The notes under the pieces are model-generated. The model was not told where the DNA came from, ran no database searches, and saw only the letters and a list, made by a program, of their open reading frames with translations. From Trypanosoma brucei (lineage: Eukaryota), in the NCBI GenBank assembly GCA_000002445.1, contig CP000071.1:1344001-1408000 (forward strand): DNA of 64,000 bases, given 5' to 3'. Both the position numbers and the translations under genes were made by a program. Shown here piece after piece: positions 32,948-56,200 of the stretch. Position 1 is the first letter of the stretch. Each line of letters starts with the position of its first letter.

Positions 32948-35900
32948 GCTGCTCCCAGTGAAAATGTGAGTAAGAACAAAAAAAAACGAAGTAAATTGAC
33001 GACGACATAAGCAACAGCGACTGTCTTCTGTTAAAATGGAAGAGAAAAGTGGCACCGCGGGAAAAGCAGAGTACATAAAAGCAAAAGTGAGGTGAGTGGA
33101 ACAGAAACGCAACGGAGGGAAGAGGACCCTTAGCGGAACGATGCTGACATAGTGTTCACAGGTGCGGCCACACATAACGGGACCCGTGAGGAGCCCGCAG
33201 CACCTATAAAGACAAAGATGCTCAGTTTGCATCTGGAGTGCGTCACTTCGCCGGCCCGCCTTTCCCACTAGAGGGAAAGAAGAATTCGTAACCAGACATC
33301 GCCTTTCTCCAAGCGCGCTTTGCGCAATGGATCAACGAAACTCTCGGTGACGTGCGTATCCCTTGTGCTCCTTGCTGCCTCTTGGCGCGTTCCAGACTGC
33401 TCACATCAATACGATACGGGTGAAATAACCTCCGAGAAAACCGCATGACCACTCGTGGTAACCCACACGCCCAACTTCCCGCAATCCCGCAAAGATGCTC
33501 GCGGTGAGCACACAACAGCGGCACAACTTATCATCAGCGCCACACAATGCGTGGTGCGTGGAGGGTAAAACGGGGAAAATACGAAGAAAGGAAATGTGTG
33601 TTGGGCAATTGGAAACAAAATAGAGGCAAACAAACGGATTATTCACAACAAATCTCCCAGGAGACGACAGAGCAAAGCAAAACGAACATCACATGTACTC
33701 CGCGAAGCCTTGATGTCTTCACATAATGAGTAAGCAAAAATGATAACAATGATTGACTTCCATTAGCACGGCCCGTGACATCGCGAACTTAACAGACAGT
33801 TACCAAAAGTGTGCGTAACAATAGAGACCAACTGCTGTCTTCTCTGCTCTTTTTCTCTTGTGAAGAAAAAAAGGAGGCGGCTAATTGTAATAATACCATC
33901 GAAGAAGGGATACCCAACTCAAATGCTTCCACGATGTGTTTGTGCGTGTGTGGAAATTTACTGGACACGCCACTTAGGAAACACTGCAAAACAGCAAGTA
34001 CTACATATGACACAGCAACTAAAGCAACGACATTGAGAAGGGGAAGATAAGGAACAAACAGAAAGAAAGTTAGCAGAGAAAAAATAGAAGTGTCAGTGCG
34101 TGTGTGGGGAAATAAACAATAATCTATCTCACACAACTAGCACGAGACGCAGCAAGTAGGCTGGAAAACGCTTTAGAAATGAGGTGGATAATTTTCCTTA
34201 GAAAAATAATAAAGAAACACCACCACAAGGCGCGATATTACCATTTATGTCGATTTTGGGCGCACTCAGGGGTGTTTGCTACCGTACCCGCAACATTGTT
34301 ATCCATGAGCCACACGAAAGAAGAAAATAGGAACCATCCCAGTTAACTTGCTCCATCTATATATAAATATTTTTTTTAATCGCATTTTTTTTACCTTTAC
34401 GTTTCCTCCTTATCTCCGCTTCCACACTCTTATCAACCAACTCCTTTTCTTCCACTCAACTCACACACACACACACCCCATCCCCTTCCTTATACACCTT
34501 TCTTATTTTTGATCGTTGCAGTTGGCCGTTGCAGGTTCACTAACTTCTTCAACCATCGAGCCGCAAACAAATATCGGTGATAACACCTGAAAACTCACAA
34601 ATTACCCATATGAACCCCATCGGAGCGACACCGCTAAAAGACGACCCAAAAAAGAAGAAAAGGCGGAAGACGCAGCAAGCGGGAATGGGAAAGAGATTCG
34701 AGGTAACAAATAAGACAACGAAAGAAAAAAAAAAGGAAACTCACGCACTCACTACAGATGAAGTGGACCCCTGCATTTACGTTCAACGAACCTGGAAAGT
34801 GGCAAATAAAAAGAAGAATACGGCACCACACGACATATCGGCAGCCTCATTAAATCCATTCATTCATTCAATTATGAACCGCACACACACACACATAAAA
34901 GGAAGAAAACTAGGGGGGACACACCTAACAATCAGAGTTTGCCACGCACTCAACCAAGCTCCACAGCGTTATCACCGCAGCACCCGATAAGAAATCGGAG
35001 CGCACGCAAGCGTCGACAGAAACCCAAAAAAAGGGTGAATAGAAGAAAAGGGAAGGTTAAGAGATCAAAAACTGAAAACCAATAGGCGGGTCACTCTCCG
35101 CAGAGGTACTCTAAAGATGATGCGCGTAAAAATGTGGCGCAAACATCACACAGATACACTAAGCAGCGGGGAATCAAGATAAATAAACAAAACAAAAGAA
35201 ACGTTTTCTTTTTCCTTTTTAAAATATCCATTAGTATAACAGGCTCCACCCAGAGTCCCTCACCCATCCATTTCCTCATCCAAACTTCCTCCCTCCTCTG
35301 GTCACTTTAATTCTTCTAACAGTTGTTAGTGGTGTCATGGCGCCCCACCGAACGTTCCCTCATCCTCCCAGTGCCAACAAAAAGAGCACGTAAATGCAAA
35401 AGCAACTGGAGAAGAGGGCAAAGGAGCAACGGAGAGGAACATTTGCAACAGTAGTCAAAACCGGGCGGTTTCAGCGTGCGCCAACGGCAATAGACAACTG
35501 ATATTGCAAGTCATCCAGGACAGCACCTAGCACGCAAGCAGAGTGGAATATATTTGTATAAACTTTCGGATAATGGAACAAAAACTACAACGCAACACAA
35601 AACGATACCCAATACACAAGCACGCACGCACAAAAACAAACAAACACATATATATATAAATATATAAATATATAAATATATAAGACAACAACTACACCAA
35701 CCAAAAAATCATATAAACAGACACTCAAATATATCTTCCTCACAGTCTGTTACGTGTCCCACAAACGACGCCCACAAATAACTAAAACCTGCACAATATA
35801 AACCGACAAGCTACTTATTCCGACAACAAAAAGGCAGACACAAAACAAAAAAGAGTTAAAAAACAAAATACAACAAAAACACGAGGCATTACACATAAAA

Positions 35901-36122
35901 ATAACACCCCTACCTACAACACATAAAAAAGAGACGAGAAGGATACCACTTAAATCAAGACACTACCTACCATTCAGCAAAAAAAAAATCTCAACACAGC
36001 TCAAGTTTGTGAAGAAAAAAAAACACACTAATCACAACTACAAAATAAAAAAATCTAACGAAACGAAAAGAACAATGTAAATATATAGCCTATCAAAAAA
36101 ATTAAAAAATGGCCAATGTTGA

Positions 36123-37499
36123 TTACACAGCCACATTGTAGATTGAGGCAGCCGTACCAAACACCACAGCGATCACTCCCGATATAAGGAGGAGGTACGT
36201 ACACACGTAATTTACCACACCCACCTGAGAAATGCCCCAGTTACCACAGTACATCCGGTACAATGCGGGAATGCAGAAACCAAGGACACCACCGCAGAAA
36301 CTTCCCAAAAGACCAAATACGGTATTCAGGTCGGGAATGAAGAGGCCAAGGAGCAGAGCGCATAGAGCCATGCAACCGCAAAACAGGCAGTTCTTCCATG
36401 TTTCAAGTGTGTTCAAATCCCACCCAATGATGTAATAGCAGCAATCACGGGCTGGTTGCATGCATAGTGAAAACCCAACACAGATCTTCAGCAACATGCC
36501 CGCAAACGCAATTGCCATCATCACGTCACCCTTCACGTCATAAATCTCAAAGACAGTTTCTACAGATTTGTTCCCAACATCCGTATAACCGAAGAAACCC
36601 GCAATGATGTACACCACACAACACATACTCATGGAATACGTTGTGTGGAGTGTCATGCGCCTTGCGCTCGGTTTGCGCATCTCCGAGTAAATGGAAAAAC
36701 AGTTCATATGGCACAGGTATGAAAACATGAAGATTGACAATCCCTCAATCGCCCTGTTCCCAGATTTAAACATCTCAACATCCTCGGGAAGTTTCCCATC
36801 CTTTAATCCATTTTTCGCGGAGTGCACAACAATGCAGATGACAAAATAAAAAACGAATAGCACAGCGATAGCGGAAGCGTAACGTAGTGAGTTGATTTCC
36901 TTGGGTAACGAGAGTGAAAACATTCCAACAAACCATATGATAGACGTGATCACGCGATTGCCCGTCTTTCCCTGAAAGAACTCCAATGTAGTGCACCCAG
37001 AAGCAACAGAGCCGACAAGGTAACCGGTAGCAATTACATAACTCACGCACGTCCCAAAGGTGAACAACCACGAGACCGATATAGTGAAGTAATCCCACCC
37101 GGGTCCAAAAAGGTTCCTCGAGAGATCCGTGTATGAGTTGTACCCTGTCATTTCTACTGCCTGCATCATCAGCCCAACGGAGTATATAGTCAACACAGTT
37201 ACAGTAATTAGAATGAGGATTGATGGGATCACACCACTCATCTGAAAAGCGATAGCGAGACTTATGACTCCAGCCCCCAATGTGGCACTCCCAAGGTTAA
37301 ACGTTGTCGAAAGGGCACCACCATGGGGAATGATTGCATTTATACATTGCATGAATTTGGAGTCTGTTGTCGGAGTGTCACCATTCTTGTGATGACTTTT
37401 CTCGTCTGCCGCTGACATCGCGCCGTATCCCTCACCCTCATCGGTAACAACCTCCGTGTGGGCCTTTCCAGAGCCTAATGGTTCTGTAGGGCTCAGCAT
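36123..37499 (-). CDS. Amino-acid transporter, AAAP/Aa_trans family (458 aa), array copy 1, variant A. The ORF track extends it to 532 aa via an in-frame upstream ORF.
   Basis: Polytopic membrane protein with an N-terminal acidic cytosolic tail then ~11 hydrophobic helices (ALSTTFNLGSATLGAGVISLAIAFQMSGVIPSILILITVTVLTIYSVGLMMQ...), typical of trypanosomatid AAT permeases. ATG at 37499-37497 matches the start of copies 2-5. From remembered synteny it is possibly part of the T. brucei chr8 AAT5-type locus. Confidence 0.85.
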   Translation of the reverse strand: MLSPTEPLGSGKAHTEVVTDEGEGYGAMSAADEKSHHKNGDTPTTDSKFMQCINAIIPHGGALSTTFNLGSATLGAGVISLAIAFQMSGVIPSILILITVTVLTIYSVGLMMQAVEMTGYNSYTDLSRNLFGPGWDYFTISVSWLFTFGTCVSYVIATGYLVGSVASGCTTLEFFQGKTGNRVITSIIWFVGMFSLSLPKEINSLRYASAIAVLFVFYFVICIVVHSAKNGLKDGKLPEDVEMFKSGNRAIEGLSIFMFSYLCHMNCFSIYSEMRKPSARRMTLHTTYSMSMCCVVYIIAGFFGYTDVGNKSVETVFEIYDVKGDVMMAIAFAGMLLKICVGFSLCMQPARDCCYYIIGWDLNTLETWKNCLFCGCMALCALLLGLFIPDLNTVFGLLGSFCGGVLGFCIPALYRMYCGNWGISQVGVVNYVCTYLLLISGVIAVVFGTAASIYNVAV

Positions 37500-37521
37500 A
37501 TTTAAGAGGTGGGTTTGCTGC

Positions 37522-37533
37522 GTGTGTACGTGT

Positions 37534-37564: not shown

Positions 37565-37585
37565 CTGCTTGATAGCTTGATGACT

Positions 37586-37610
37586 GAAAAGGGAAAGAAA
37601 AGAAGCGAGC
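37586..37610 (-). promoter_or_regulatory. Candidate polypyrimidine tract / trans-splicing signal upstream of AAT copy 1. It repeats once per unit (e.g. 40569-40593). A stronger alternative tract lies at ~37895-37965.
   Basis: Plus strand gaaaagggaaagaaaagaagcgagc reads on the coding (minus) strand as gctcgcttcttttctttcccttttc, followed downstream by several AG dinucleotides ~60-90 nt before the ATG. Which tract is used cannot be decided from sequence alone. Confidence 0.3.
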
Positions 37611-39119: not shown

Positions 39120-40496
39120 TTACACAGCCACATTGTAGATTGAGGCAGCCGTACCAAACACCACAGCGATCACTCCCGATATAAGGAGGAGGTACGTACA
39201 CACGTAATTTACCACACCCACCTGAGAAATGCCCCAGTTACCACAGTACATCCGGTACAATGCGGGAATGCAGAAACCAAGGACACCACCGCAGAAACTT
39301 CCCAAAAGACCAAATACGGTATTCAGGTCGGGAATGAAGAGGCCAAGGAGCAGAGCGCATAGAGCCATGCAACCGCAAAACAGGCAGTTCTTCCATGTTT
39401 CAAGTGTGTTCAAATCCCACCCAATGATGTAATAGCAGCAATCACGGGCTGGTTGCATGCATAGTGAAAACCCAACACAGATCTTCAGCAACATGCCCGC
39501 AAACGCAATTGCCATCATCACGTCACCCTTCACGTCATAAATCTCAAAGACAGTTTCTACGGATTTGTTCCCAACATCCGTATAACCGAAGAAACCCGCA
39601 ATGATGTACACCACACAACACATACTCATGGAATACGTTGTGTGGAGTGTCATGCGCCTTGCGCTCGGTTTGCGCATCTCCGAGTAAATGGAAAAACAGT
39701 TCATATGGCACAGGTATGAAAACATGAAGATTGACAATCCCTCAATCGCCCTGTTCCCAGATTTAAACATCTCAACATCCTCGGGAAGTTTCCCATCCTT
39801 TAATCCATTTTTCGCGGAGTGCACAACAATGCAGATGACAAAATAAAAAACGAATAGCACAGCGATAGCGGAAGCGTAACGTAGTGAGTTGATTTCCTTG
39901 GGTAACGAGAGTGAAAACATTCCAACAAACCATATGATAGACGTGATCACGCGATTGCCCGTCTTTCCCTGAAAGAACTCCAATGCAGAGGACCCAGATA
40001 GCACAGAGTCCACAAGGTAACCGGTAGCAATTACATAACTCACGCACGTCCCAAAGGTGAACAACCACGAGACCGATATAGTGAAGTAATCCCACCCGGG
40101 TCCAAAAAGGTTCCTCGAGAGATCCGCATATGAGTTGTACCCTGTCATTTCTACTGCCTGCATCATCAGCCCAACGGAGTATATAGTCAACACAGTTACA
40201 GTAATTAGAATGAGGATTGATGGAATCACACCACTCATCTGAAAAGCGATAGCGAGACTTATGACTCCAGCCCCCAATGTGGCACTCCCAAGGTTAAACG
40301 TTGTCGAAAGGGCACCACCATGGGGAATGATTGCATTTATACATTGCATGAATTTGGAGTCTGTTGTCAGAGTGTTACCATTCTTGTGATGACTTTTCTC
40401 GTCTGCCGCTGACATCGCGCCGTATCCCTCACCCTCATCGGTAACAACCTCCGTGTGGGCCTTTCCAGAGCCCAATGCTTCTGTAGGGCTCAGCAT
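39120..40496 (-). CDS. Amino-acid transporter, AAAP family (458 aa), array copy 2, variant B (A7, N41, L43, A124, DSVLSGSSA patch).
   Basis: ATG verified at 40496. Protein identical to copy 4. Confidence 0.9.
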   Translation of the reverse strand: MLSPTEALGSGKAHTEVVTDEGEGYGAMSAADEKSHHKNGNTLTTDSKFMQCINAIIPHGGALSTTFNLGSATLGAGVISLAIAFQMSGVIPSILILITVTVLTIYSVGLMMQAVEMTGYNSYADLSRNLFGPGWDYFTISVSWLFTFGTCVSYVIATGYLVDSVLSGSSALEFFQGKTGNRVITSIIWFVGMFSLSLPKEINSLRYASAIAVLFVFYFVICIVVHSAKNGLKDGKLPEDVEMFKSGNRAIEGLSIFMFSYLCHMNCFSIYSEMRKPSARRMTLHTTYSMSMCCVVYIIAGFFGYTDVGNKSVETVFEIYDVKGDVMMAIAFAGMLLKICVGFSLCMQPARDCCYYIIGWDLNTLETWKNCLFCGCMALCALLLGLFIPDLNTVFGLLGSFCGGVLGFCIPALYRMYCGNWGISQVGVVNYVCTYLLLISGVIAVVFGTAASIYNVAV

Positions 40497-42102: not shown

Positions 42103-43479
42103 TTACACAGCCACATTGTAGATTGAGGCAGCCGTACCAAACACCACAGCGATCACTCCCGATATAAGGAGGAGGTACGTACACACGTAATTTACCACAC
42201 CCACCTGAGAAATGCCCCAGTTACCACAGTACATCCGGTACAATGCGGGAATGCAGAAACCAAGGACACCACCGCAGAAACTTCCCAAAAGACCAAATAC
42301 GGTATTCAGGTCGGGAATGAAGAGGCCAAGGAGCAGAGCGCATAGAGCCATGCTACCGCAAAACAGGCAGTTCTTCCATGTTTCAAGTGTGTTCAAATCC
42401 CACCCAATGATGTAATAGCAGCAATCACGGGCTGGTTGCATGCATAGTGAAAACCCAACACAGATCTTCAGCAACATGCCCGCAAACGCAATTGCCATCA
42501 TCACGTCACCCTTCACGTCATAAATCTCAAAGACAGTTTCTACAGATTTGTTCCCAACATCCGTATAACCGAAGAAACCCGCAATGATGTACACCACACA
42601 ACACATACTCATGGAATACGTTGTGTGGAGTGTCATGCGCCTTGCGCTCGGTTTGCGCATCTCCGAGTAAATGGAAAAACAGTTCATATGGCACAGGTAT
42701 GAAAACATGAAGATTGACAATCCCTCAATCGCCCTGTTCCCAGATTTAAACATCTCAACATCCTCGGGAAGTTTCCCATCCTTTAATCCATTTTTCGCGG
42801 AGTGCACAACAATGCAGATGACAAAATAAAAAACGAATAGCACAGCGATAGCGGAAGCGTAACGTAGTGAGTTGATTTCCTTGGGTAACGAGAGTGAAAA
42901 CATTCCAACAAACCATATGATAGACGTGATCACGCGATTGCCCGTCTTTCCCTGAAAGAACTCCAATGCAGAGGACCCAGATAGCACAGAGTCCACAAGG
43001 TAACCGGTAGCAATTACATAACTCACGCACGTCCCAAAGGTGAACAACCACGAGACCGATATAGTGAAGTAATCCCACCCGGGTCCAAAAAGGTTCCTCG
43101 AGAGATCCGCATATGAGTTGTACCCTGTCATTTCTACTGCCTGCATCATCAGCCCAACGGAGTATATAGTCAACACAGTTACAGTAATTAGAATGAGGAT
43201 TGATGGGATCACACCACTCATCTGAAAAGCGATAGCGAGACTTATGACTCCAGCCCCCAATGTGGCACTCCCAAGGTTAAACGTTGTCGAAAGGGCACCA
43301 CCATGGGGAATGATTGCATTTATACATTGCATGAATTTGGAGTCTGTTGTCGGAGTGTCACCATTCTTGTGATGACTTTTCTCGTCTGCCGCTGACATCG
43401 CGCCGTATCCCTCACCCTCATCGGTAACAACCTCCGTGTGGGCCTTTCCAGAGCCTAATGGTTCTGTAGGGCTCAGCAT
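42103..43479 (-). CDS. Amino-acid transporter, AAAP family (458 aa), array copy 3. It is a chimera: variant-A N-terminus (P7, D41, P43) with variant-B middle (A124, DSVLSGSSA), plus a unique C408S-type change (CLFCGSMALC).
   Basis: Direct comparison of the five translated copies. Confidence 0.9.
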   Translation of the reverse strand: MLSPTEPLGSGKAHTEVVTDEGEGYGAMSAADEKSHHKNGDTPTTDSKFMQCINAIIPHGGALSTTFNLGSATLGAGVISLAIAFQMSGVIPSILILITVTVLTIYSVGLMMQAVEMTGYNSYADLSRNLFGPGWDYFTISVSWLFTFGTCVSYVIATGYLVDSVLSGSSALEFFQGKTGNRVITSIIWFVGMFSLSLPKEINSLRYASAIAVLFVFYFVICIVVHSAKNGLKDGKLPEDVEMFKSGNRAIEGLSIFMFSYLCHMNCFSIYSEMRKPSARRMTLHTTYSMSMCCVVYIIAGFFGYTDVGNKSVETVFEIYDVKGDVMMAIAFAGMLLKICVGFSLCMQPARDCCYYIIGWDLNTLETWKNCLFCGSMALCALLLGLFIPDLNTVFGLLGSFCGGVLGFCIPALYRMYCGNWGISQVGVVNYVCTYLLLISGVIAVVFGTAASIYNVAV

Positions 43480-45085: not shown

Positions 45086-46462
45086 TTACACAGCCACATT
45101 GTAGATTGAGGCAGCCGTACCAAACACCACAGCGATCACTCCCGATATAAGGAGGAGGTACGTACACACGTAATTTACCACACCCACCTGAGAAATGCCC
45201 CAGTTACCACAGTACATCCGGTACAATGCGGGAATGCAGAAACCAAGGACACCACCGCAGAAACTTCCCAAAAGACCAAATACGGTATTCAGGTCGGGAA
45301 TGAAGAGGCCAAGGAGCAGAGCGCATAGAGCCATGCAACCGCAAAACAGGCAGTTCTTCCATGTTTCAAGTGTGTTCAAATCCCACCCAATGATGTAATA
45401 GCAGCAATCACGGGCTGGTTGCATGCATAGTGAAAACCCAACACAGATCTTCAGCAACATGCCCGCAAACGCAATTGCCATCATCACGTCACCCTTCACG
45501 TCATAAATCTCAAAGACAGTTTCTACGGATTTGTTCCCAACATCCGTATAACCGAAGAAACCCGCAATGATGTACACCACACAACACATACTCATGGAAT
45601 ACGTTGTGTGGAGTGTCATGCGCCTTGCGCTCGGTTTGCGCATCTCCGAGTAAATGGAAAAACAGTTCATATGGCACAGGTATGAAAACATGAAGATTGA
45701 CAATCCCTCAATCGCCCTGTTCCCAGATTTAAACATCTCAACATCCTCGGGAAGTTTCCCATCCTTTAATCCATTTTTCGCGGAGTGCACAACAATGCAG
45801 ATGACAAAATAAAAAACGAATAGCACAGCGATAGCGGAAGCGTAACGTAGTGAGTTGATTTCCTTGGGTAACGAGAGTGAAAACATTCCAACAAACCATA
45901 TGATAGACGTGATCACGCGATTGCCCGTCTTTCCCTGAAAGAACTCCAATGCAGAGGACCCAGATAGCACAGAGTCCACAAGGTAACCGGTAGCAATTAC
46001 ATAACTCACGCACGTCCCAAAGGTGAACAACCACGAGACCGATATAGTGAAGTAATCCCACCCGGGTCCAAAAAGGTTCCTCGAGAGATCCGCATATGAG
46101 TTGTACCCTGTCATTTCTACTGCCTGCATCATCAGCCCAACGGAGTATATAGTCAACACAGTTACAGTAATTAGAATGAGGATTGATGGAATCACACCAC
46201 TCATCTGAAAAGCGATAGCGAGACTTATGACTCCAGCCCCCAATGTGGCACTCCCAAGGTTAAACGTTGTCGAAAGGGCACCACCATGGGGAATGATTGC
46301 ATTTATACATTGCATGAATTTGGAGTCTGTTGTCAGAGTGTTACCATTCTTGTGATGACTTTTCTCGTCTGCCGCTGACATCGCGCCGTATCCCTCACCC
46401 TCATCGGTAACAACCTCCGTGTGGGCCTTTCCAGAGCCCAATGCTTCTGTAGGGCTCAGCAT
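45086..46462 (-). CDS. Amino-acid transporter, AAAP family (458 aa), array copy 4, variant B.
   Basis: Identical protein to copy 2. Confidence 0.9.
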   Translation of the reverse strand: MLSPTEALGSGKAHTEVVTDEGEGYGAMSAADEKSHHKNGNTLTTDSKFMQCINAIIPHGGALSTTFNLGSATLGAGVISLAIAFQMSGVIPSILILITVTVLTIYSVGLMMQAVEMTGYNSYADLSRNLFGPGWDYFTISVSWLFTFGTCVSYVIATGYLVDSVLSGSSALEFFQGKTGNRVITSIIWFVGMFSLSLPKEINSLRYASAIAVLFVFYFVICIVVHSAKNGLKDGKLPEDVEMFKSGNRAIEGLSIFMFSYLCHMNCFSIYSEMRKPSARRMTLHTTYSMSMCCVVYIIAGFFGYTDVGNKSVETVFEIYDVKGDVMMAIAFAGMLLKICVGFSLCMQPARDCCYYIIGWDLNTLETWKNCLFCGCMALCALLLGLFIPDLNTVFGLLGSFCGGVLGFCIPALYRMYCGNWGISQVGVVNYVCTYLLLISGVIAVVFGTAASIYNVAV

Positions 46463-48067
46463 ATTTAAGAGGTGGGTTTGCTGCGTGTGTACGTTTGTGT
46501 GTGTGTGTGTGTGCTGCTTGATAGCTTGATGACTGAAAAGGGAAAGAAAAGAAGCGAGCTAATTCGTACAACGGAAGTAAAGACTGCCAAACACATGAAT
46601 ACACAAGTACCAAGAGTTCTTGCACACCCAGACAAGAATCTACTAAACTCACGGGCATAGCTACTTGCATATCGAAAAAAGCACCACGTTATTTGAAGGG
46701 GCATTCAACTCATGGCGACAAAGGAAGACACAAGAAGGTGGTTTCTACGTGCACCAGACAAGTGTCAAACATGACGCACAAATCGCAGCATCATCAGAGA
46801 ATGAAACACAACGTGTGTCACACACTGCTTCTGCTTACCCCGACAGAAAACAAAAGCGGATAACAAATACAACAAAAAAGGAAGGGAACTAAACAAAAAT
46901 AAAGGAGCACATTGGAGCGACACGAACGCTGGAGTAACGTATTGTTGGCTTGGCGATTGATAAAACGCGTAACCAACCCTTCACTTAACCCTGTGGGAAC
47001 ATGTTGTACAAAGGTAGAACATCTTCCAGAGTACGTGTTAGGTTACACGTGACACCAACTCCATCCAGCAATCAACATTCATTCGTGTGGCAGACAGAAG
47101 TTGATACACACATGTTTTCTGTGAGGAATAGAAACATGAGTATATATAGATAATGCTTTACGCCACGGCTTCGCAATGGAAAACAAAATAACAAATGAGA
47201 AAGCATCCTTCCTTGGCCCTCCCCTCTACCTGCGAACCCAAAAACAGGGAACTGCCTGATGGAGACATAGCGCAAAGTAAAAAATAAAAATCGTAGCAAA
47301 AAGGGAGAAACACTCCAGTAGCGGCCCACGAAGATGTAGTGCAACACAAGGAAGCCACTTTGTGTCACACAATGCTGAGGAAAGAGATATACGCTAAAAG
47401 TTCTTTTTAAAAGTTCTAAAAAATAAAATATATAGATATATATATGCCTCCGCTAAACCAACAAAATAATAATCAAGAATATTTTCCCATTTCGTCTTAT
47501 TTTTTTTTTCTGTCTCATAGTTATGCATCACTCACAGCACCTGCCGCCACCATCCCTACCGTAAATAAACACGAGGAATTAACCTCTCCGCCACAGGGAT
47601 TTTGTTAAGAGGAAGGAGCCACTTTACGCAGGTCAGAGAAAACAAGGTATGAATCCATAAATACATAACTCTGTATGATAGAGGTGGGCACGCCGTTGCA
47701 AAGTGGGCATTAGCTCCTCGTTAACACGGAAACAAACTTATTAAAAAAGAAAACGTTAACGGTGTAAGCAAATTTTCCCCGCTTACACAAACATATTCAC
47801 CCAACACTGAACACAGTAAAAAGAAGAAAAGAAGAGGCACCTCAAATAAATATGCTTATATACCTATACGTAACACCTAACAGTTGCATTTTGTCTACTC
47901 TTACACCACACTAAAGGTCATGCAACTGCTTATCATGCATGACACAAACACATGGAAAAAACAACACAGTAGAAAAAAATTTAAAAATTACCATCACACG
48001 ACAGAGTTTGCCTGATTATTGCCGTCACTTGCTGCATGCTCCCACTCTAACAAAGGGCCAATGTTGA

Positions 48068-49444
48068 TTACACAGCCACATTGTAGATTGAGGCAGCCGT
48101 ACCAAACACCACAGCGATCACTCCCGATATAAGGAGGAGGTACGTACACACGTAATTTACCACACCCACCTGAGAAATGCCCCAGTTACCACAGTACATC
48201 CGGTACAATGCGGGAATGCAGAAACCAAGGACACCACCGCAGAAACTTCCCAAAAGACCAAATACGGTATTCAGGTCGGGAATGAAGAGGCCAAGGAGCA
48301 GAGCGCATAGAGCCATGCAACCGCAAAACAGGCAGTTCTTCCATGTTTCAAGTGTGTTCAAATCCCACCCAATGATGTAATAGCAGCAATCACGGGCTGG
48401 TTGCATGCATAGTGAAAACCCAACACAGATCTTCAGCAACATGCCCGCAAACGCAATTGCCATCATCACGTCACCCTTCACGTCATAAATCTCAAAGACA
48501 GTTTCTACAGATTTGTTCCCAACATCCGTATAACCGAAGAAACCCGCAATGATGTACACCACACAACACATACTCATGGAATACGTTGTGTGGAGTGTCA
48601 TGCGCCTTGCGCTCGGTTTGCGCATCTCCGAGTAAATGGAAAAACAGTTCATATGGCACAGGTATGAAAACATGAAGATTGACAATCCCTCAATCGCCCT
48701 GTTCCCAGATTTAAACATCTCAACATCCTCGGGAAGTTTCCCATCCTTTAATCCATTTTTCGCGGAGTGCACAACAATGCAGATGACAAAATAAAAAACG
48801 AATAGCACAGCGATAGCGGAAGCGTAACGTAGTGAGTTGATTTCCTTGGGTAACGAGAGTGAAAACATTCCAACAAACCATATGATAGACGTGATCACGC
48901 GATTGCCCGTCTTTCCCTGAAAGAACTCCAATGTAGTGCACCCAGAAGCAACAGAGCCGACAAGGTAACCGGTAGCAATTACATAACTCACGCACGTCCC
49001 AAAGGTGAACAACCACGAGACCGATATAGTGAAGTAATCCCACCCGGGTCCAAAAAGGTTCCTCGAGAGATCCGTGTATGAGTTGTACCCTGTCATTTCT
49101 ACTGCCTGCATCATCAGCCCAACGGAGTATATAGTCAACACAGTTACAGTAATTAGAATGAGGATTGATGGGATCACACCACTCATCTGAAAAGCGATAG
49201 CGAGACTTATGACTCCAGCCCCCAATGTGGCACTCCCAAGGTTAAACGTTGTCGAAAGGGCACCACCATGGGGAATGATTGCATTTATACATTGCATGAA
49301 TTTGGAGTCTGTTGTCGGAGTGTCACCATTCTTGTGATGACTTTTCTCGTCTGCCGCTGACATCGCGCCGTATCCCTCACCCTCATCGGTAACAACCTCC
49401 GTGTGGGCCTTTCCAGAGCCTAATGGTTCTGTAGGGCTCAGCAT
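48068..49444 (-). CDS. Amino-acid transporter, AAAP family (458 aa), array copy 5, variant A (identical protein to copy 1).
   Basis: Direct comparison. The GSVASGCTT patch and T124 are shared with copy 1. Confidence 0.9.
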   Translation of the reverse strand: MLSPTEPLGSGKAHTEVVTDEGEGYGAMSAADEKSHHKNGDTPTTDSKFMQCINAIIPHGGALSTTFNLGSATLGAGVISLAIAFQMSGVIPSILILITVTVLTIYSVGLMMQAVEMTGYNSYTDLSRNLFGPGWDYFTISVSWLFTFGTCVSYVIATGYLVGSVASGCTTLEFFQGKTGNRVITSIIWFVGMFSLSLPKEINSLRYASAIAVLFVFYFVICIVVHSAKNGLKDGKLPEDVEMFKSGNRAIEGLSIFMFSYLCHMNCFSIYSEMRKPSARRMTLHTTYSMSMCCVVYIIAGFFGYTDVGNKSVETVFEIYDVKGDVMMAIAFAGMLLKICVGFSLCMQPARDCCYYIIGWDLNTLETWKNCLFCGCMALCALLLGLFIPDLNTVFGLLGSFCGGVLGFCIPALYRMYCGNWGISQVGVVNYVCTYLLLISGVIAVVFGTAASIYNVAV

Positions 49445-51049
49445 ATTTAAGAGGTGGGTTTGCTGCGTGTGTACGTTTGTGTGTGTGTGTGTGTGCTGCT
49501 TGATAGCTTGATGACTGAAAAGGGAAAGAAAAGAAGCGAGCTAATTCGTACAACGGAAGTAAAGACTGCCAAACACATGAATACACAAGTACCAAGAGTT
49601 CTTGCACACCCAGACAAGAATCTACTAAACTCACGGGCATAGCTACTTGCATATCGAAAAAAGCACCACGTTATTTGAAGGGGCATTCAACTCATGGCGA
49701 CAAAGGAAGACACAAGAAGGTGGTTTCTACGTGCACCAGACAAGTGTCAAACATGACGCACAAATCGCAGCATCATCAGAGAATGAAACACAACGTGTGT
49801 CACACACTGCTTCTGCTTACCCCGACAGAAAACAAAAGCGGATAACAAATACAACAAAAAAGGAAGGGAACTAAACAAAAATAAAGGAGCACATTGGAGC
49901 GACACGAACGCTGGAGTAACGTATTGTTGGCTTGGCGATTGATAAAACGCGTAACCAACCCTTCACTTAACCCTGTGGGAACATGTTGTACAAAGGTAGA
50001 ACATCTTCCAGAGTACGTGTTAGGTTACACGTGACACCAACTCCATCCAGCAATCAACATTCATTCGTGTGGCAGACAGAAGTTGATACACACATGTTTT
50101 CTGTGAGGAATAGAAACATGAGTATATATAGATAATGCTTTACGCCACGGCTTCGCAATGGAAAACAAAATAACAAATGAGAAAGCATCCTTCCTTGGCC
50201 CTCCCCTCTACCTGCGAACCCAAAAACAGGGAACTGCCTGATGGAGACATAGCGCAAAGTAAAAAATAAAAATCGTAGCAAAAAGGGAGAAACACTCCAG
50301 TAGCGGCCCACGAAGATGTAGTGCAACACAAGGAAGCCACTTTGTGTCACACAATGCTGAGGAAAGAGATATACGCTAAAAGTTCTTTTTAAAAGTTCTA
50401 AAAAATAAAATATATAGATATATATATGCCTCCGCTAAACCAACAAAATAATAATCAAGAATATTTTCCCATTTCGTCTTATTTTTTTTTTCTGTCTCAT
50501 AGTTATGCATCACTCACAGCACCTGCCGCCACCATCCCTACCGTAAATAAACACGAGGAATTAACCTCTCCGCCACAGGGATTTTGTTAAGAGGGAGGAG
50601 CCACTTTACGCAGGTCAGAGAAAACAAGGTATGAATCCATAAATACATAACTCTGTATGATAGAGGTGGGCACGCCGTTGCAAAGTGGGCATTAGCTCCT
50701 CGTTAACACGGAAACAAACTTATCAAAAAAGAAAACGTTAACGGTGTAAGCAAATTTTCCCCGCTTACACAAACATATTCACCCAACACTGAACACAGTA
50801 AAAAGAAGAAAAGAAGAGGCACCTCAAATAAATATGCTTATATACCTATACGTAACACCTAACAGTTGCATTTTGTCTACTCTTACACCACACTAAAGGT
50901 CATGCAACTGCTTATCATGCATGACACAAACACATGGAAAAAATAACACAGTAGAAAAAAATTTAAAAATTACCATCACACGACAGAGTTTGCCTGATTA
51001 TTGCCGTCACTTGCTGCATGCTCCCACTCTAACAAAGGGCCAATGTTGA

Positions 51050-51166
51050 TTACACAGCCACATTGTAGATTGAGGCAGCCGTACCAAACACCACAGCGAT
51101 CACTCCCGATATAAGGAGGAGGTACGTGCACACGTAATTTACCACACCCACCTGAGAAATGCCCCA
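51050..51166 (-). pseudogene. Truncated amino-acid transporter fragment: only the last ~38 codons plus the stop codon of a sixth array unit.
   Basis: 51044-51166 matches the 3' end of the AAT coding sequence (stop at 51050-51052) with one SNP (gtacgtGcacacg). Homology stops dead at 51166 and the sequence then switches to unrelated G/T-rich DNA. Confidence 0.85.
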
Positions 51167-51620
51167 TTTTTATATATACGTTGTGGTGTCCAGATGAATT
51201 GCTTTTCCTTCGATATATTTGTTGTTAGTACATTTTTAAATAGCTGTATTGTTGTTTCTGGTTTATTCTTTTTCTTCATTTTACTTTTTTTCTGTTCATT
51301 GTCTTTTTTTGTTTGTTGTTACGTGGATGTTTAATAGTCGATATGAGTTCGTATTCGTTAAATATATTTTTAGTGTTTCACTGCTGATTATTTTTATCTT
51401 TTTGTGTGTTGTTTTGTTTTCTGTGTATGGGTTTTTATTTACACATGCCGTTCATGGTGTTTTTTCCCGGTCCTTCTACCTATTTTTGGGACGAACACGA
51501 ATGTGTTAGGTGCTTTGAAGTGACGCCTCGGTTACTGATTTCCTCGTACATGCGTTGTAGAAGGGGTGTTGCTCGTTTTTCGTTTCGCTGGTTGTGAAGA
51601 AGTTGAGTTGGTGTAGTGAG
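51167..51620. other. Unique G/T-rich (A/C-poor on +) low-complexity segment immediately flanking the array breakpoint.
   Basis: Direct reading: long runs of t and g with few a/c (tttgttgttagtacatttttaaatagctgtattgttgtttctggtttattc...). Composition is the mirror of the A/C-rich flank at 35.5-36.1 kb on the other side of the array. Confidence 0.6.
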
Positions 51621-52416
51621 GCATCACCGCGCTCTTGTGGTACGATCCTCAAATGAGAATACGTGCACACCGTTAATTCTGTTTCAAATTCTTCTGATCA
51701 AGTCTCATTGTTATTTGTCATACCGAACGCCGGGTCACGTATAATTCTCGTGATTCATTACAAACAGTCTCGTCATATAACGAGGTCATAGTGGATATCA
51801 GCACGATTCTGTAAACAGATGTGGCACCTATCATAAGGGAGAATGTTACCGCCACAACTGAATTGTGTGGCGACATTTTCGATGGGAATCGGTAACGTCG
51901 TTCAGGCACCTTGCTGGGTGCGATACAGTAACGGTAGGAAGAATCTAGACTACCGTCACGTCCTGTATAGTGTCACCCGAAGTGACAATAAAAAGAAAGA
52001 CAACAGAGAATTTCGTCACCACCAAAATTTCCAGTGGAGCGAAAACGAAGCACACCACTCGTTAGCCGGAATAAAGAGACCCCGAAAGACAAGTCACTCT
52101 ACTCTAATAGGTGCCGCAGTCCGCGAAGCAAGGCTTCCTTGCATAAGCATTTTATGTATCCCTACCTTCATCATCACTTTTAATTTCCAAATAAATGCGA
52201 TAATTTTTATTTTCTTGTTTCAAAAAAGAGGAAGCATGTGTGGAAGTGGGAAAGTGCAGGTAGACTATTAGCGCTACACAATCGTGAGAGGAAGAGACGC
52301 AGGCAGTGTGTAAGAGCGGGGCCACACAGTGTTATAGGTGTCACAGCATTTAAGTATGGGCACGCATATGCCAGCGTGTGCCTGTATATAGTAGTGCATG
52401 TGAGGCACTGGTTTTC

Positions 52417-53214
52417 CTACCTTTGTCCTCCTTTTAAATACCATTCCAAGACTGAGCTAGCTGCTTTCGGAAGAGATCGACCCCACCGTACAGGCAACCC
52501 CATCAAGAAGCAAGAAAGGACTGCGGAATCTCTTATAGCAACAATAGTTCCATTTTCACAATGTACCAACTCACAAAAACCATCGGAAAACCGGAATTCT
52601 ATGAATGCTCCTTCTACGCGGAAGGAGGATAAAAAGCACAAACGTGACTGATCATTACAAGCTGATGTCTCATGGAAACTAACAGCATTTACCCCCATCA
52701 CTTCCGCAACTTCGCCAGCCCATGGAAACCTACGCTCTATGTCAGATCTCGACAACACGATCGATTTTTCAATGCAAGAATTCGAATCAATAAAGTAACT
52801 TGGAAGATCGTCACGAGTAGATATAAGAAGGTTGGCGCCATCGATGAAATGGCACCCAAGAATGTCTCGATGGATCTGGTAGCAAAGTGCAATTGCTCTA
52901 GAGCTCTCACTCTCACTCCAGTAGACAGTAGGCCTCATTACCTTGCTCACCAGTGCAGTGAAAGGAGTAAGCCCCATTTTACCGCCACAGCGCAGACACA
53001 CATCTTTTCCGCTCTTTGAGCAATGGAAAAAGGGACCCTCGGAGTACTCCATAAAACAAATATCACAAACGTAGCCATTTTGGTATTCGGGCTCATGATC
53101 TATTGGAAGCACTTCAAAATACCTAAAAGTGCACTTATTTTTGTCCTTCATCGTCCCTCCAATAGTCAAAAAAGAAGAAGTAATGACATAAAGTGTAAAT
53201 AATACGCACCTCAT
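52417..53214 (-). CDS. Hypothetical protein (265 aa) with a hydrophobic N-terminus (possible signal/anchor) and a Cys/His zinc-finger-like cluster (CDICFMEYSEGPFFHCSKSGKDVCLRCGG).
   Basis: ATG verified at 53214 (MRCVLFTLYVITSSFLTIGG). Alternative ATG at 53151 (MKDKNKC). Non-repetitive composition on the PTU strand. Confidence 0.5.
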   Translation of the reverse strand: MRCVLFTLYVITSSFLTIGGTMKDKNKCTFRYFEVLPIDHEPEYQNGYVCDICFMEYSEGPFFHCSKSGKDVCLRCGGKMGLTPFTALVSKVMRPTVYWSESESSRAIALCYQIHRDILGCHFIDGANLLISTRDDLPSYFIDSNSCIEKSIVLSRSDIERRFPWAGEVAEVMGVNAVSFHETSACNDQSRLCFLSSFRVEGAFIEFRFSDGFCELVHCENGTIVAIRDSAVLSCFLMGLPVRWGRSLPKAASSVLEWYLKGGQR

Positions 53215-56200
53215 TCAGTGGTTAGTGGTGGCAGTTCAAACTCAGACAATGAAAATACACGTGCCCGTGGTAGAGAAATTTCTGAGACTGTATACATGCA
53301 TACAGAAATGAATAGACATGTCTATGTCCATGCAACCCCAGTAGTTCGCGACATTGAACACACAAGCACACTGAGTTTCATAACCAATGCTTCCCTGTCG
53401 TTGCGATAAGGGCTTCAATTCACTCTCGTAAGCGAAGCCCCTGTGTCAGACGCGCGGTAAACAGCCACAGGTATGAAGAGACTTTCTTCTCCCTAACACA
53501 ACGCGGGTAACCAACCTCAACTTTATTCTTTAAAAGCTAAATCACTTGTACACCGCAAGGGAAAACAACTCGCCACCAACATGAATACAGCTTTGTGACA
53601 TCAAGGGGTCGGAAAGCTGAAATACTTGGCCCACATTAAAGTTAAACGATCAACATACGTACGAACAACCATACATATACACTTACATGTGCAGAAAGCT
53701 GAGAAAGACGTAGACTCTTCAGATATGGAAATACTGAAGACGACGTAAGAGCGACAACAACGGATAAAGAAAGATCCCTTCTTCACAACCGCAACAGTGG
53801 CAACCAAACGGTTCGTTAAATTTTTATTCGTGATCGCAGAGTGAACAAACCATGGTTGCCCACTAACAAATATAGCAGTATCAATAACAACAACAGTCCT
53901 GACAGCCGACGCTGATACTTCCACATCCATCACAACACTAAGCACACTGGACGTACCCTAACAGTCCCTACGGGCACGTTGTCATAAAACGAGGGCCCCG
54001 GTGCTACGAGCAATAGAATACGCAAAGGTCAAAACATCAGACCCATTTCCAGCCTTTGTTTATCTGTACCTTCTGATTTTATTTATTAAGAGTGATTTTA
54101 TTGCAAAAAAAACAGGAGAAGGGGGTCGTGCTTGGGTGTCAGTGCTATGCAATGTCAAATACCTACCATGGAATCGACGTTTTCACGTGCTTCCATGTTC
54201 ATTTGTACATGCCCCTTCAATGGGGGAAAGTGGACATTCTCTCATCTCTCCTCCCCTGAGCAGGTTAAATAAAATTAAAAGCCGCTCCACGTCAATTGGG
54301 GGGGGGCACTTGGTTAAAACAAACAACTATAACCGGCTGCCTGGAGAGGAGGTTCAGCTGTGTGCGCAGCGTGGCGCGAACCATCAACTGAGTCCCTCCC
54401 CTAGGGACACGAAAAATGCAAAAGAAAACACTTAGTGGTTGCCCTTAACTCGCCTCAGAATGGTGGCAGGCTTGTCATGAAGAGTCATTCCACAGAGACT
54501 CTTTGACAGAGGGGATACGTAAGTCAATAGTGGCAAAGACATATTTGAACTAAGATGTAGTAATGTTGATTATCTTGCGTTTGTAGAGGAGTGACTGTCA
54601 AGCTTAGCGGTAAAGTGCATGAGTAGAGAGGAACATTCACAACTATTCCATTCACACTCCACCACGTGGTTCGAGATGGAGCGGTAAGTCACTGCATATC
54701 CCCCTCCTTTCTGTGGGATATACTGACGAAGAGGAACCTAACGATCGGTGACAATGGAAAAAAACAAAGGAAAGGCACACAAACTTTTCCTTTTCATTGA
54801 CAATCACCCCTTCATTCTTACTAATACCTCATTCGAGGAAGAGGACGAAACTGATCAATTTTTTTGTTTGCTAAAAGCGAAAAAAAAAACATTGTTCTTT
54901 TTTTTTTGAGTGTTTTTGCACAGCTCCTCGAGGTGCCTTGAGCGCATATACTTCAGCACAAACACTTAATTGCAAAATGAAAAAGTTAAACCTTGGACTC
55001 TGCCAAACGCGTGTGTGCATATAATTACAAAAATAACGCACGCAAAACACTTTGTTTTCAATGTAGTGGCGGGGTGCGCAGTCAATCCGGGGTGATGCGT
55101 ACGTTGCGACCGCGTTGCGCAGCATAAGTGGGGGGAGCACTCGCAGCACTCGAGGCTGTCTTATCGCACTAATAGTCACCGTGTTTCGTAGTGGGGGGAA
55201 CCAGAAAGCAACATGTCTAGCACCGGACTTCGTACTGAACACTGCGGCCTCAACAACGAAGGGGGGAATGATAATAATACATAAAAGAAGTAATAAGGAA
55301 ACTCCGCCGCCCCTACACACGAAAAGAGAATTTATTTATTTATTTTTATGCGCACCGGAGGTACTCCCACACCCAGATCAACGACGACGGCGAGACTCGG
55401 AGCAACCCTAACCACCCTTCCCACTCAAAACACCACTAACGGTCCCGTCCCGTTCGCGCACGGTGCGAAATAGGGTGGACGCCTCATCCCAGAACAATGT
55501 CGAGGAAAGCAAAACAACGTTGGAAACGCCGAGCTTACATCACCTATGAACACCGCCGCAGGATGGAACCCAACGAAGGAAAACAGCGACCCCCCATAAC
55601 GGCAGCAGACCCGCAATAGCCCAACAACTGCAAATCGTAAACACCGGCTGAATCAGGCACCGGACGCCTCTCCATCCGCCCCTTGGCGAAGGTATATCGT
55701 GGGGGGGCTACTGTGGCATGCCGCCGTGGCACACGAAGACCGATGAAACGGCAGAACGGTGGGGAGGATTGGGAGCAGCGTCGTCCCACCGACGCGGAAA
55801 AGAAAGGACCTTCGTCCTCTCTCTGAAGCGCTGAGGGCTACGGAAGAAACAAAATGGCCCTCAAGCGCGACCCGTAGTGCTCGCCAAAGGGGAAACGGAG
55901 AAGTAAAGGGGACCCCTCAACAGCCTACAAAGCGAAGCCCCATAGGGTTCCACCTCGTTGCCCCTATGGACAACGGGAAGGGAGAACCCGTGGACCGCGT
56001 CCACAGGAAAATTGGAGAGGGCAAAAGGGAAACAGCGCCACCGAACTCGAGACCGGAAACGCCATCCACTAGCAGCCGCCTTGGCCTAAAGTCTGGCCGC
56101 GCTGCCCCACACCGGAGGCACACGCAGACATACATTTTCAAAAGCGCCTGCTTTGACATACCTCTCCGAAACGAACGTGGAGAACCAGCACCATGCACGA

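What the first reader, a model, noticed from the sequence alone, without database searches (positions are those of the whole stretch)
51040..51620. Abrupt mid-gene breakpoint terminating the array, flanked by mirror-composition DNA
The sixth unit stops after only 117 bp of CDS at 51166, with no terminal decay of similarity (the last 120 bp carry one SNP). It is followed at once by ~450 bp of G/T-rich unique sequence. The opposite array flank (35.5-36.1 kb) is A/C-rich on the same strand, so the two flanks have mirror compositions. A sharp edge like this points to a discrete recombination or insertion event defining the array boundary rather than gradual divergence. It also marks where copy-number change by unequal crossover would be anchored.
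Basis: seen in the sequence. Interest (0 to 1): 0.5.

Follow-up and report, generated by a model that had tools for sequence, protein, structure and literature searches.

The report
Gene stub ending arginine-transporter array
The sharp edge is real, but it is the already annotated 120-nt pseudogene stub at the upstream end of the Trypanosoma brucei arginine-transporter (TbAAT5) gene array; it marks where recombination-driven homogenisation between gene copies stops, and the stub may be the last trace of a lost neighbouring transporter gene.

Summary
The window is T. b. brucei TREU927 chromosome 8. Five TbAAT5 arginine-transporter genes lie on the minus strand with a 2982-2983 nt period. Array homology spans 36103-51169, which is five units plus 140 nt. 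The extra 140 nt (51030-51169) holds 20 nt of 3' flank, the stop codon and the last 38-39 codons, so the stub is the upstream end of the array. It is published as the "120 nt pseudogene" Tb927.8.4750.

The edge is razor sharp and sits at the same base in T. b. gambiense and T. equiperdum, so it is not a mis-assembly. The right flank is the most G+T-rich stretch in the window. The two flanks share no homology, and the left flank is simply a typical U-rich 3' UTR.

T. congolense and T. vivax carry the same kind of C-terminal stub at the same syntenic site, with different edges (codons about 383 and 399, against 420 here). In T. theileri, T. conorhini and T. grayi this site holds an intact diverged paralogue, PAT4, whose last 55-75 codons are homogenised with the neighbouring AAT5 gene behind equally sharp edges. 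T. cruzi keeps a decayed PAT4 relic there.

Best reading: the edge is a limit of concerted evolution, and the stub is probably the vestige of the lost upstream paralogue. This is an ordinary, known feature with a modest evolutionary twist.

The parts
51030..51169 (-). Element 'c', the terminal partial repeat. It holds 20 nt of 3' flank (51030-51049), the stop codon (51050-52), codons W420-V458 (51053-51166) and a mutated N419 codon (51167-69). It corresponds to the annotated 120-nt pseudogene Tb927.8.4750 (51050-51169).
   Evidence: (family D15, six copies); PMC5207785
49445..51029 (-). Inter-copy spacer 'I' of the partial unit. It is the same 3' UTR, intergenic and 5' UTR sequence found between all full copies, so the first full gene has the same upstream flank as the internal genes. 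Sense-strand polypyrimidine tracts lie at 50822-50795, 49875-49851 and 49541-49513.
51170..51620 (.). Unique block directly upstream of the stub. It is G/T-rich on the + strand, which is A/C-rich on the sense strand (A 49%, C 22%). It has no homology to the array, to the other flank, to PAT4/AAT5 or to Rfam families.
51621..52416 (.). The rest of spacer U, between the upstream 265-aa gene and the stub. It contains one sense-strand polypyrimidine tract (52010-51990, next AG at 51963) and a probably spurious + strand ORF (51843-52271). U in total is 1247 nt, close to the space an intact upstream paralogue would occupy.
52417..53214 (-). Conserved 265-aa gene, the syntenic upstream neighbour in all species examined. 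The orthologues are 241-242 aa.
48068..49444 (-). TbAAT5 copy 5 (Tb927.8.4740), the first full gene in the direction of transcription.
45086..46462 (-). TbAAT5 copy 4 (Tb927.8.4730).
42103..43479 (-). TbAAT5 copy 3 (Tb927.8.4720).
39120..40496 (-). TbAAT5 copy 2 (Tb927.8.4710), 458 aa, Aa_trans PF01490.
36123..37499 (-). TbAAT5 copy 1 (Tb927.8.4700), the last gene of the array. The mechanical ORF runs to 37721 (532 aa) because of a longer (AC)n tract.
36103..36242 (-). The 'c' element at the downstream end of the array. Array homology stops at 36103, 20 nt after the stop codon. Together with 51030-51169 it forms the 140-nt direct repeat that bounds the array.
35500..36102 (-). Distinct, U/G-rich (sense strand) 3' UTR and flank of the last copy.
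   Evidence: PMC5207785 (distinct 3' UTR of 4700)

Best explanation
The feature is the upstream terminal partial repeat of the TbAAT5 arginine-transporter array, annotated as the 120-nt pseudogene Tb927.8.4750. The array has the form U - c - (I N c)x5 - D. Here c is the last ~39 codons plus 20 nt, I is the inter-copy spacer and N is the rest of the gene.

Shown: the abrupt edge at 51166-51169 is the limit of sequence that can pair with the other units. Everything on the array side is kept near-identical by unequal crossover and gene conversion (concerted evolution), and everything beyond shares no homology. The edge is therefore razor sharp and stable, and it is identical in the other T. brucei-group genomes examined.

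Inferred: the stub descends from the 3' end of an older gene that once occupied the slot between the 265-aa gene and AAT5. That slot holds an intact, diverged paralogue (PAT4) in T. theileri and T. conorhini (T. grayi also has PAT4, but on a separate small contig), and a decayed relic in T. cruzi. In those species the last 55-75 codons of PAT4 are homogenised with the adjacent AAT5 gene behind equally sharp edges. In the African trypanosomes the body of the upstream gene has been lost or has decayed beyond recognition, and only the portion still exchanged with AAT5 survives.

Inferred: the two 'c' copies flanking a single (I N) are the substrate on which unequal crossover would generate and resize the array. 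This explains why the array is an integer number of units plus one c.

The stub probably has no coding function. Its practical consequence is that the first full gene has the same upstream processing signals as the internal copies.
For: Anatomy:
- Period of 2982-2983 nt and six copies of the 140-nt element.
- Sharp edges at both array ends.
- No other AAT fragment anywhere in the window.

Identity of the locus:
- The five proteins equal the TREU927 entries exactly.
- Full copies match Pfam Aa_trans at 5e-52.
- The literature calls the locus five genes plus a 120-nt pseudogene, with arginine-transport function (PMC5207785). Concerted evolution of AAT5 in T. brucei was shown earlier (PMC1810246).

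The junction is real and conserved.

Comparative evidence:
- T. congolense has a stub of codons 383-stop (+9 nt), 98.8% identical to its own full copy.
- T. vivax has a stub from codon ~399, 100% identical to its own copy 1.
- Between T. brucei and T. congolense the stubs are only ~80% identical. Each stub therefore tracks its own species' genes.
- Synteny is 242-aa gene, then PAT4, then AAT5 orthologue in T. theileri and T. conorhini.
- PAT4 and AAT5 are ~55-60% identical at nucleotide level, then switch abruptly to 100% near codon 392 (T. conorhini) or 401 (T. theileri).
- Protein identities: in the N-terminal part, PAT4 against AAT5 is 50-57%. In the C-terminal part, within-species identity is 100/100/91%, higher than the 80-85% between orthologues.
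- T. cruzi has a frameshifted PAT4 relic (profile positions 20-268, E~1e-10) in the same slot, upstream of an array of at least six copies.
- No intact PAT4 was found in T. brucei, T. congolense, T. vivax, T. cruzi or T. rangeli.
- Spacer U is 1247, 1392 and 1163 nt in the three African species, near the ~1350-1450 nt an in-place gene would occupy.
- Variants specific to the terminal unit cluster within 575 nt of the edge, and two of them are gambiense-type alleles. This fits weaker homogenisation at the array end.
Against: - No residual similarity to PAT4 or AAT5 is detectable in spacer U of T. brucei, T. congolense or T. vivax, by tblastn, by profile HMM on six-frame translations, or by local DNA alignment with shuffles. 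The 'relic of the upstream paralogue' step therefore rests on synteny and analogy.
- The sequence abutting the stub is A/C-rich on the sense strand, opposite to the U/G-rich drift expected for neutral sequence in this transcription unit. This hints at replacement, insertion or inversion and not at simple in-place decay.
- There is no outgroup to show that PAT4 predates the split between African and other trypanosomes.
- The T. conorhini 100% tract runs into assembly gaps in both copies.
- Several assemblies may have collapsed copy numbers.
Confidence: 0.7

Rival explanations
1. The stub is a 5'-truncated genuine sixth AAT5 array unit. A discrete deletion, insertion or inversion, perhaps the event that introduced the A/C-rich block, cut it off. 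This could have happened in the T. brucei lineage or independently in each African species, without any link to PAT4.
For: The edge is razor sharp, with random sequence immediately beyond it. The adjoining 450 nt has an anomalous strand composition unique in the 64-kb window. Edges differ among T. brucei, T. congolense and T. vivax, at codons 420, 383 and 399. No PAT4 relic is detectable.
Against: It needs three independent truncations at the same syntenic site, or one ancestral truncation followed by further edge shifts. It does not explain why non-African species have a homogenised C-terminal tract of similar extent at exactly this position. No inserted element, target-site duplication or inverted repeat was found. 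In deep time it merges with the main explanation, because PAT4 may itself be the old upstream duplicate.
Confidence: 0.22
2. The mirror-image flank compositions reflect a functional or structural symmetry. Candidates are an inverted duplication bracketing the array, a cryptic strand switch, or a GT-rich transcription start element driving + strand (antisense) transcription from 51.2-51.6 kb.
For: Region 51170-51620 is the G+T maximum of the window on the + strand. A + strand ORF (51843-52271) follows and is called as a gene in DAL972.
Against: The flanks share no homology in either orientation. Genes on both sides are on the minus strand: the 265-aa gene, a Ras-family GTPase at 59585-60352 and a DUF7623 protein at 60852-63965, so there is no strand switch. 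The left flank composition is the norm for this transcription unit. The 142-aa ORF has no Pfam hit and no counterpart in T. congolense.
Confidence: 0.05
3. The junction is an assembly artefact, and a full sixth copy exists in the real genome.
For: Near-identical 3-kb repeats are easily mis-assembled, and copy number differs among assemblies.
Against: The identical junction base occurs in three independent genome projects, and sequence is collinear at 98.7-99.4% across it. The Lister 427 annotation also has it. Analogous stubs occur in T. congolense and T. vivax.
Confidence: 0.01

Closest known systems
Tb927.8.4750 / Tb427.08.4750, the '120 nt long pseudogene' of the TbAAT5 locus (Mathieu et al. 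2017, PMC5207785; AAT5 locus counted as n=6 in Jackson 2007, PMC1810246)
   Same: It is the same object. It is a 120-nt C-terminal fragment upstream of five full-length arginine-transporter genes on chromosome 8. The last gene (4700) has a distinct 3' UTR.
   Different: In the passages I retrieved, the literature only lists it. I found no discussion of the sharp edge, of its conservation across species with shifted edges, or of a link to the PAT4 paralogue.
Terminal partial repeats and edge effects of tandem gene arrays evolving in concert, by unequal crossover and gene conversion (the survey of T. brucei tandem arrays is Jackson 2007, PMC1855330)
   Same: There is near-identity among units, abrupt loss of homology at the array ends, end units less well homogenised than internal ones, and variable copy number with fixed ends.
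   Different: Here the bounding repeat (140 nt in T. brucei, 165-241 nt elsewhere) appears to pre-date the array. It exists as a homogenised tract between two diverged neighbouring paralogues in species with a single AAT5 copy.
Partial 3'-end gene conversion between neighbouring amino-acid transporter paralogues (for example the 151-bp C-terminal tract of AAT9.5Tb converted by AAT9.3Tb, Jackson 2007, PMC1810246)
   Same: A short conversion tract confined to the C-terminal coding end of adjacent AAAP-family genes, with sharp boundaries.
   Different: In T. brucei one conversion partner is no longer a gene, only a stub.

Membership tests
AAAP / Aa_trans amino-acid transporter gene (TbAAT5 arginine transporter) | Match to Pfam PF01490 over the whole transporter core (about 400 residues) | tested here: not met
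   Full copies match (5.2e-52, residues 60-453). The stub encodes only residues 420-458 and is preceded by in-frame stop codons. It is a fragment of a family member and not a functional gene.
AAAP / Aa_trans amino-acid transporter gene (TbAAT5 arginine transporter) | Sequence identity to the published TbAAT5 genes of TREU927 | tested here: met
   The five window proteins equal AAZ13235-AAZ13239 exactly. The stub is 98.6% identical (138/140 nt) to the corresponding part of the internal copies.
Terminal partial repeat of a concertedly evolving tandem array | Homology to array units that starts abruptly and then continues in register through the spacer into the next full unit | tested here: met
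   Region 51169 down to 48188 aligns in register with every other unit, with only a handful of differences.
Terminal partial repeat of a concertedly evolving tandem array | Within-species identity exceeds between-species identity (concerted evolution) | tested here: met
   Stub against its own species' copies: 98.6% in T. brucei, 98.8% in T. congolense, 100% in T. vivax. T. brucei stub against T. congolense stub: about 80%. Published for the full genes in PMC1810246.
Gene-conversion tract between adjacent diverged paralogues (PAT4 / AAT5) | Abrupt switch from paralogue-level to near-100% identity, with the C-terminal part grouping by species while the N-terminal part groups by gene | tested here: met
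   T. conorhini and T. theileri DNA alignments and the identity matrix including T. grayi. Caveat: assembly gaps flank the T. conorhini tract.
Relic (pseudogene) of the PAT4 paralogue | Occupies the syntenic PAT4 slot between the 242/265-aa gene and AAT5 | tested here: met
   Gene orders in L001-L005 and L008.
Relic (pseudogene) of the PAT4 paralogue | Residual PAT4-specific sequence similarity outside the homogenised tract | tested here: not met
   T. brucei, T. congolense and T. vivax spacers give E>=0.1 with PAT4 and family profiles. The T. cruzi spacer gives 8e-11 with the same method, which serves as a positive control.
Retroposon (ingi / RIME / DIRE-type) insertion at the boundary | Element-derived sequence, an A-rich tail abutting the target, and a target-site duplication | tested here: inconclusive
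   The sense strand is A-rich next to the stub. No flanking duplication was found beyond one 11-mer, which I attribute to chance (no significant local similarity between U and the gene's 3' end), and there is no Rfam hit. No trypanosome repeat library was available to search.
Strand-switch region / transcription start region | Change of coding strand across the region | tested here: not met
   Conserved genes on both sides are on the minus strand.

The most novel reading that the evidence does not exclude
A 40-75-codon gene end has persisted since before the African trypanosomes diverged, long after the rest of its gene (PAT4-type) vanished. It survives only because it is continually overwritten by the neighbouring essential arginine-transporter genes. 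This 'kept-alive' stub, paired with the identical end of AAT5, was the homology on which the AAT5 arrays of T. brucei and T. vivax were independently built. In addition, the anomalous sense-strand A/C-rich block beside it could be the scar of the event that destroyed the upstream gene (an inversion or a retroposon), or an antisense GT-rich initiation element.
Probability: 0.3. Interest if true: 0.45.

Novelty: already known. Interest (0 to 1): 0.25.

Why it matters
The stub is already in the annotation, and TbAAT5 is a characterised, essential arginine-transporter locus, so nothing about parasite biology changes.

The comparative picture does give a clean, checkable example of three things:
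- how a short homogenised tract between neighbouring paralogues can seed a tandem array and then fix its boundaries;
- how a gene fragment can outlive its gene through concerted evolution;
- why the first gene of the array shares its 5' processing signals with the internal copies while the last gene has its own 3' UTR.

There are also practical consequences. The 140-nt bounding repeat and the 3-kb near-identical units explain the copy-number differences and collapses among assemblies. They also matter for primer, RNAi or CRISPR design at this locus.

Tried and rejected
- Homology between the two flanks, direct or reverse-complement: only low-complexity matches. Rejected.
- PAT4/AAT5 remnants in the spacer upstream of the stub, searched by tblastn with seven queries, by two profile HMMs on six-frame translations, and by Smith-Waterman with shuffles: nothing in T. 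brucei, T. congolense or T. vivax. The same method found the T. cruzi relic.
- An 11-mer shared by the stub and U (51133 / 51670) looked like a possible older stub or target-site duplication. No significant local similarity between U and the gene's 3' end supports it (best score reached by 64 of 200 shuffles).
- Inverted repeats around the junction: only short AT-rich chance pairs.
- Rfam on 49.4-53.3 kb (E<=1) and on the whole window (gathering threshold): no hits.
- The + strand 142-aa ORF (51843-52271) as a real antisense gene: no Pfam hit, an implausible sequence, and no counterpart ORF in T. congolense.
- A strand switch upstream, suggested by an opposite-strand gene in T. conorhini: not present in T. 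brucei, where a Ras-family GTPase and a DUF7623 gene further upstream are on the minus strand.
- Alignment of T. brucei spacer U to T. congolense: not alignable. Only coding parts and one 53-nt element upstream of the ATG align.
- T. b. equiperdum locus L006 started inside the array and did not reach the junction.
- The exact-sequence look-up of the window's 458-aa protein returned nothing, although the cluster listing later showed it is the TREU927 protein.
- Loci fetched second in a parallel call (L003, L005) were not available to scripts. They were analysed with the alignment tools or pasted in by hand.
Full report
**1. What is at the coordinates**

The window carries a tandem array with a 2982-2983 nt period (one interval is 2997 nt). 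All its long ORFs are on the minus strand: 36123-37721, 39120-40496, 42103-43479, 45086-46462 and 48068-49444. The 458-aa product is an amino-acid/auxin-permease-type transporter (Pfam Aa_trans, 5.2e-52). The five predicted proteins are identical to T. b. brucei TREU927 entries AAZ13235-AAZ13239.

The locus is therefore TbAAT5 on chromosome 8. It encodes high-affinity arginine transporters that are essential to the parasite (Mathieu et al. 2017, PMC5207785).

Array homology extends from 36103 to 51169, which is five units plus 140 nt. The 140-nt element, which I call c, occurs six times (family D15). The sixth copy (51030-51169) consists of 20 nt of 3' flank, the stop codon (51050-52), codons W420-V458 (51053-51166), and a codon that is AAC (Asn419) in full copies but AAA here.

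Because the genes are on the minus strand, this stub is the upstream-most element of the array and represents the 3' end of a gene.

**2. Check of the observation**

- Identity to the neighbouring unit is essentially complete up to 51166-51169 and random beyond.
- Only one SNP (51128) falls in the last 120 nt.
- Region 51170-51620 is 48.8% T and 22.0% G on the + strand. Its 300-nt windows reach G+T = 0.71, the maximum for the whole 64-kb window (mean 0.449, sd 0.057).
- Region 35500-36100 is 50.4% A and 22.6% C.

One nuance concerns terminal decay. The five positions at which the terminal partial unit differs from all other units lie within 575 nt of the edge, and none lies in its remaining ~2400 nt. 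If such differences fell uniformly along the unit, all five landing there would have probability about (575/2982)^5, roughly 3e-4 (my arithmetic). Two of the five are alleles carried by all T. b. gambiense units. The end unit therefore appears less thoroughly homogenised than internal ones.

The opposite array end is just as sharp, at 36103, 20 nt after the stop codon.

**3. Not an artefact, and already annotated**

The same junction base is found in three other sources.
- In T. b. gambiense DAL972, L001:2510 equals window 51169. The sequence is collinear at 98.7% across it, with three full copies.
- In T. equiperdum OVI, the junction is at L007:8046. The sequence is 99.4% collinear from 59222 to 48048, with one full copy assembled.

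Jackson (2007) counted n=6 for the AAT5 locus and demonstrated concerted evolution of its copies. The object itself is therefore known.

**4. The flanks**

BLAST of each flank against the whole window, on both strands, finds only low-complexity matches. The best inter-flank hit is 37 nt at 78% identity, E=0.23.

The A/C-rich + strand composition of the left flank is the ordinary U/G-rich sense-strand composition seen in every intergenic region of this minus-strand unit, including the array's own spacer. That flank is the distinct 3' UTR of the last copy noted by Mathieu et al. The 'mirror' therefore says nothing about common origin.

The right flank, by contrast, is genuinely odd, because its sense strand is 49% A and 22% C. 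It has no Rfam match, no meaningful inverted repeats, no target-site duplication, and no similarity to transporter sequences.

Genes further upstream are on the minus strand: the 265-aa gene at 52417-53214, a Ras-family GTPase at 59585-60352, and a DUF7623 protein at 60852-63965. There is therefore no strand switch. The + strand ORF at 51843-52271, called as a gene in DAL972, has no family match and no counterpart in T. congolense.

**5. Comparative anatomy, the informative part**

Synteny is conserved across the genus: a 241-265-aa gene, then the transporter(s), then a 124-129-aa gene, then an Atx10homo_assoc gene, and onward.

The African species all carry a stub.
- T. congolense has a stub of codons 383-stop plus 9 nt (L002:8195-8435). 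It is 98.8% identical to the single assembled full copy and has razor-sharp edges on both sides.
- T. vivax has a stub from codon ~399 (L003:5468 onward). It is 100% identical to copy 1 and is followed by two full copies.
- Between T. brucei and T. congolense the stubs are only ~80% identical. Each stub tracks its own genome's genes.

In T. theileri and T. conorhini the slot is occupied by an intact 445-446-aa paralogue named PAT4.
- PAT4 and the adjacent AAT5 orthologue are ~55-60% identical at nucleotide level.
- At a sharp point they become 100% identical. In T. conorhini this runs from about codon 392 to at least 225 nt past the stop. In T. theileri it runs from about codon 401 to 8 nt before the stop.
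- At protein level the N-terminal 320 residues group by gene (PAT4 against AAT5 is 50-57%). Residues 402-455 group by species (100%, 100%, and 91% in T. grayi, against 80-85% between orthologues).

T. cruzi has a frameshifted PAT4 relic in the slot (profile positions 20-268, E about 1e-10). An array of at least six arginine-permease genes follows, and its upstream edge lies in the intergenic spacer.

Intact PAT4 was found only in T. theileri, T. melophagium (partial), T. grayi and T. conorhini.

Two caveats apply. The T. conorhini tract abuts assembly gaps in both copies. T. theileri has gaps nearby, but its 165-nt tract is flanked by unique sequence on both sides.

**6. Explanation**

In every species the structure is U - c - (I N c)n - D. 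The value of n is 1 in T. theileri, T. conorhini and the T. congolense assembly, 2 in T. vivax, 3 in DAL972 and 5 here. T. cruzi is the exception: its array edge lies in the spacer and it has no c stub.

A short tract at the 3' end of the coding sequence has evidently been exchanged between the upstream gene and AAT5 for a long time. Its limits are sharp because conversion and crossover can only operate where the partners pair.

I infer that in the African lineage the body of the upstream gene was lost or decayed, while the exchanged tract was continually refreshed from the essential AAT5 genes. I further infer that the two c copies bracketing one (I N) are the natural substrate for unequal crossover, which yields arrays of n units plus one c with fixed outer edges and variable n. 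The differing assembled copy numbers on an invariant junction fit this.

Spacer U measures 1247, 1392 and 1163 nt in the three African species. This is close to the space an in-place gene would need and is compatible with decay in place.

The weak point is that no PAT4-like signal remains in U in any African species. In addition, the sense-strand A/C-rich composition next to the stub is not what neutral decay in this transcription unit should give.

**7. Likely consequences (inferred)**

The stub is preceded by in-frame stops and is not a gene. Because the partial unit includes the complete spacer, the first full gene (4740) has the same upstream polypyrimidine tracts and 5' region as the internal copies. 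The last gene (4700) has its own 3' UTR (PMC5207785).

One sense-strand polypyrimidine tract in U (52010-51990, AG at 51963) could direct polyadenylation of the upstream gene and trans-splicing of an RNA that runs through the stub. This is untested.

**8. Verdict**

This is a real feature, correctly observed, but already annotated and of a familiar kind: a terminal partial repeat of a concertedly evolving tandem array. The mirror-composition idea is not supported. The added value here is the cross-species evidence that the boundary is an old homogenisation limit with a neighbouring paralogue that African trypanosomes have otherwise lost.

Noticed in passing
window 37499-37721, with the (GT)n tract at 37522-37564: Copy 1 (Tb927.8.4700) gives a 532-aa ORF only because its (AC)n microsatellite just upstream of the real ATG (37499) is 14 nt longer than in the other units. 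This brings an upstream ATG at 37721 into frame. All other copies are 458 aa, and the literature says RNA-seq supports 1377-nt ORFs.
   Followed up: partly
window 36123-49444 (the five CDS): The variant pattern along the array is symmetric. The outer copies (4700 and 4740) encode identical 458-aa cores, the inner pair (4710 and 4730) are identical to each other with 9 amino-acid differences from the outer type, and the central copy (4720) is a chimera of the two types.
   Followed up: partly
window 53300-59500: About 6 kb lies between the 265-aa gene and a Ras-family GTPase gene (59585-60352, minus strand) with no convincing ORF, no Pfam hit on the longest ORFs and no Rfam hit. This is unusually long for a T. 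brucei intergenic interval. No genes were called there in the T. equiperdum contig either.
   Followed up: partly
L008 (T. cruzi GCA_003177105.1) about 5400-6770: A frameshifted, decayed relic of the PAT4 paralogue (profile positions 20-268) lies between the 242-aa gene and a tandem array of at least six arginine-permease genes with a 2514-nt period. The array's upstream edge (6849 = 9367) lies in the intergenic spacer, and there is no C-terminal stub.
   Followed up: partly
window 49685-49737 and L002 9731-9782: A 53-nt element upstream of the AAT5 start codon is 85% conserved between T. brucei and T. congolense, although the rest of the spacer is not alignable. It may be a 5' UTR or splice-site regulatory element.
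   Followed up: no
window 51843-52271 (+) and L001 1407-1835 (-): A 142-aa ORF antisense to the transcription unit is called as a gene in the T. b. gambiense DAL972 annotation. It has no Pfam hit, a low-plausibility sequence and no counterpart in T. congolense, so it is probably a spurious call.
   Followed up: partly
L005 (T. conorhini) 7940-7960 and 11550-11568; L004 (T. theileri) 6793-9362 and 11748-12240: Assembly gaps (runs of N) lie immediately after the shared 3' tract in both T. conorhini copies, and between the two T. theileri genes. Spacer lengths, and part of the 100% identity in T. conorhini, may therefore reflect how the repeats were assembled.
   Followed up: yes
L005 1-4097 (minus strand): In T. 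conorhini a 1458-aa gene on the opposite strand lies just upstream of the 242-aa gene. The transporter locus may therefore sit at the start of a transcription unit there, unlike in T. brucei.
   Followed up: no
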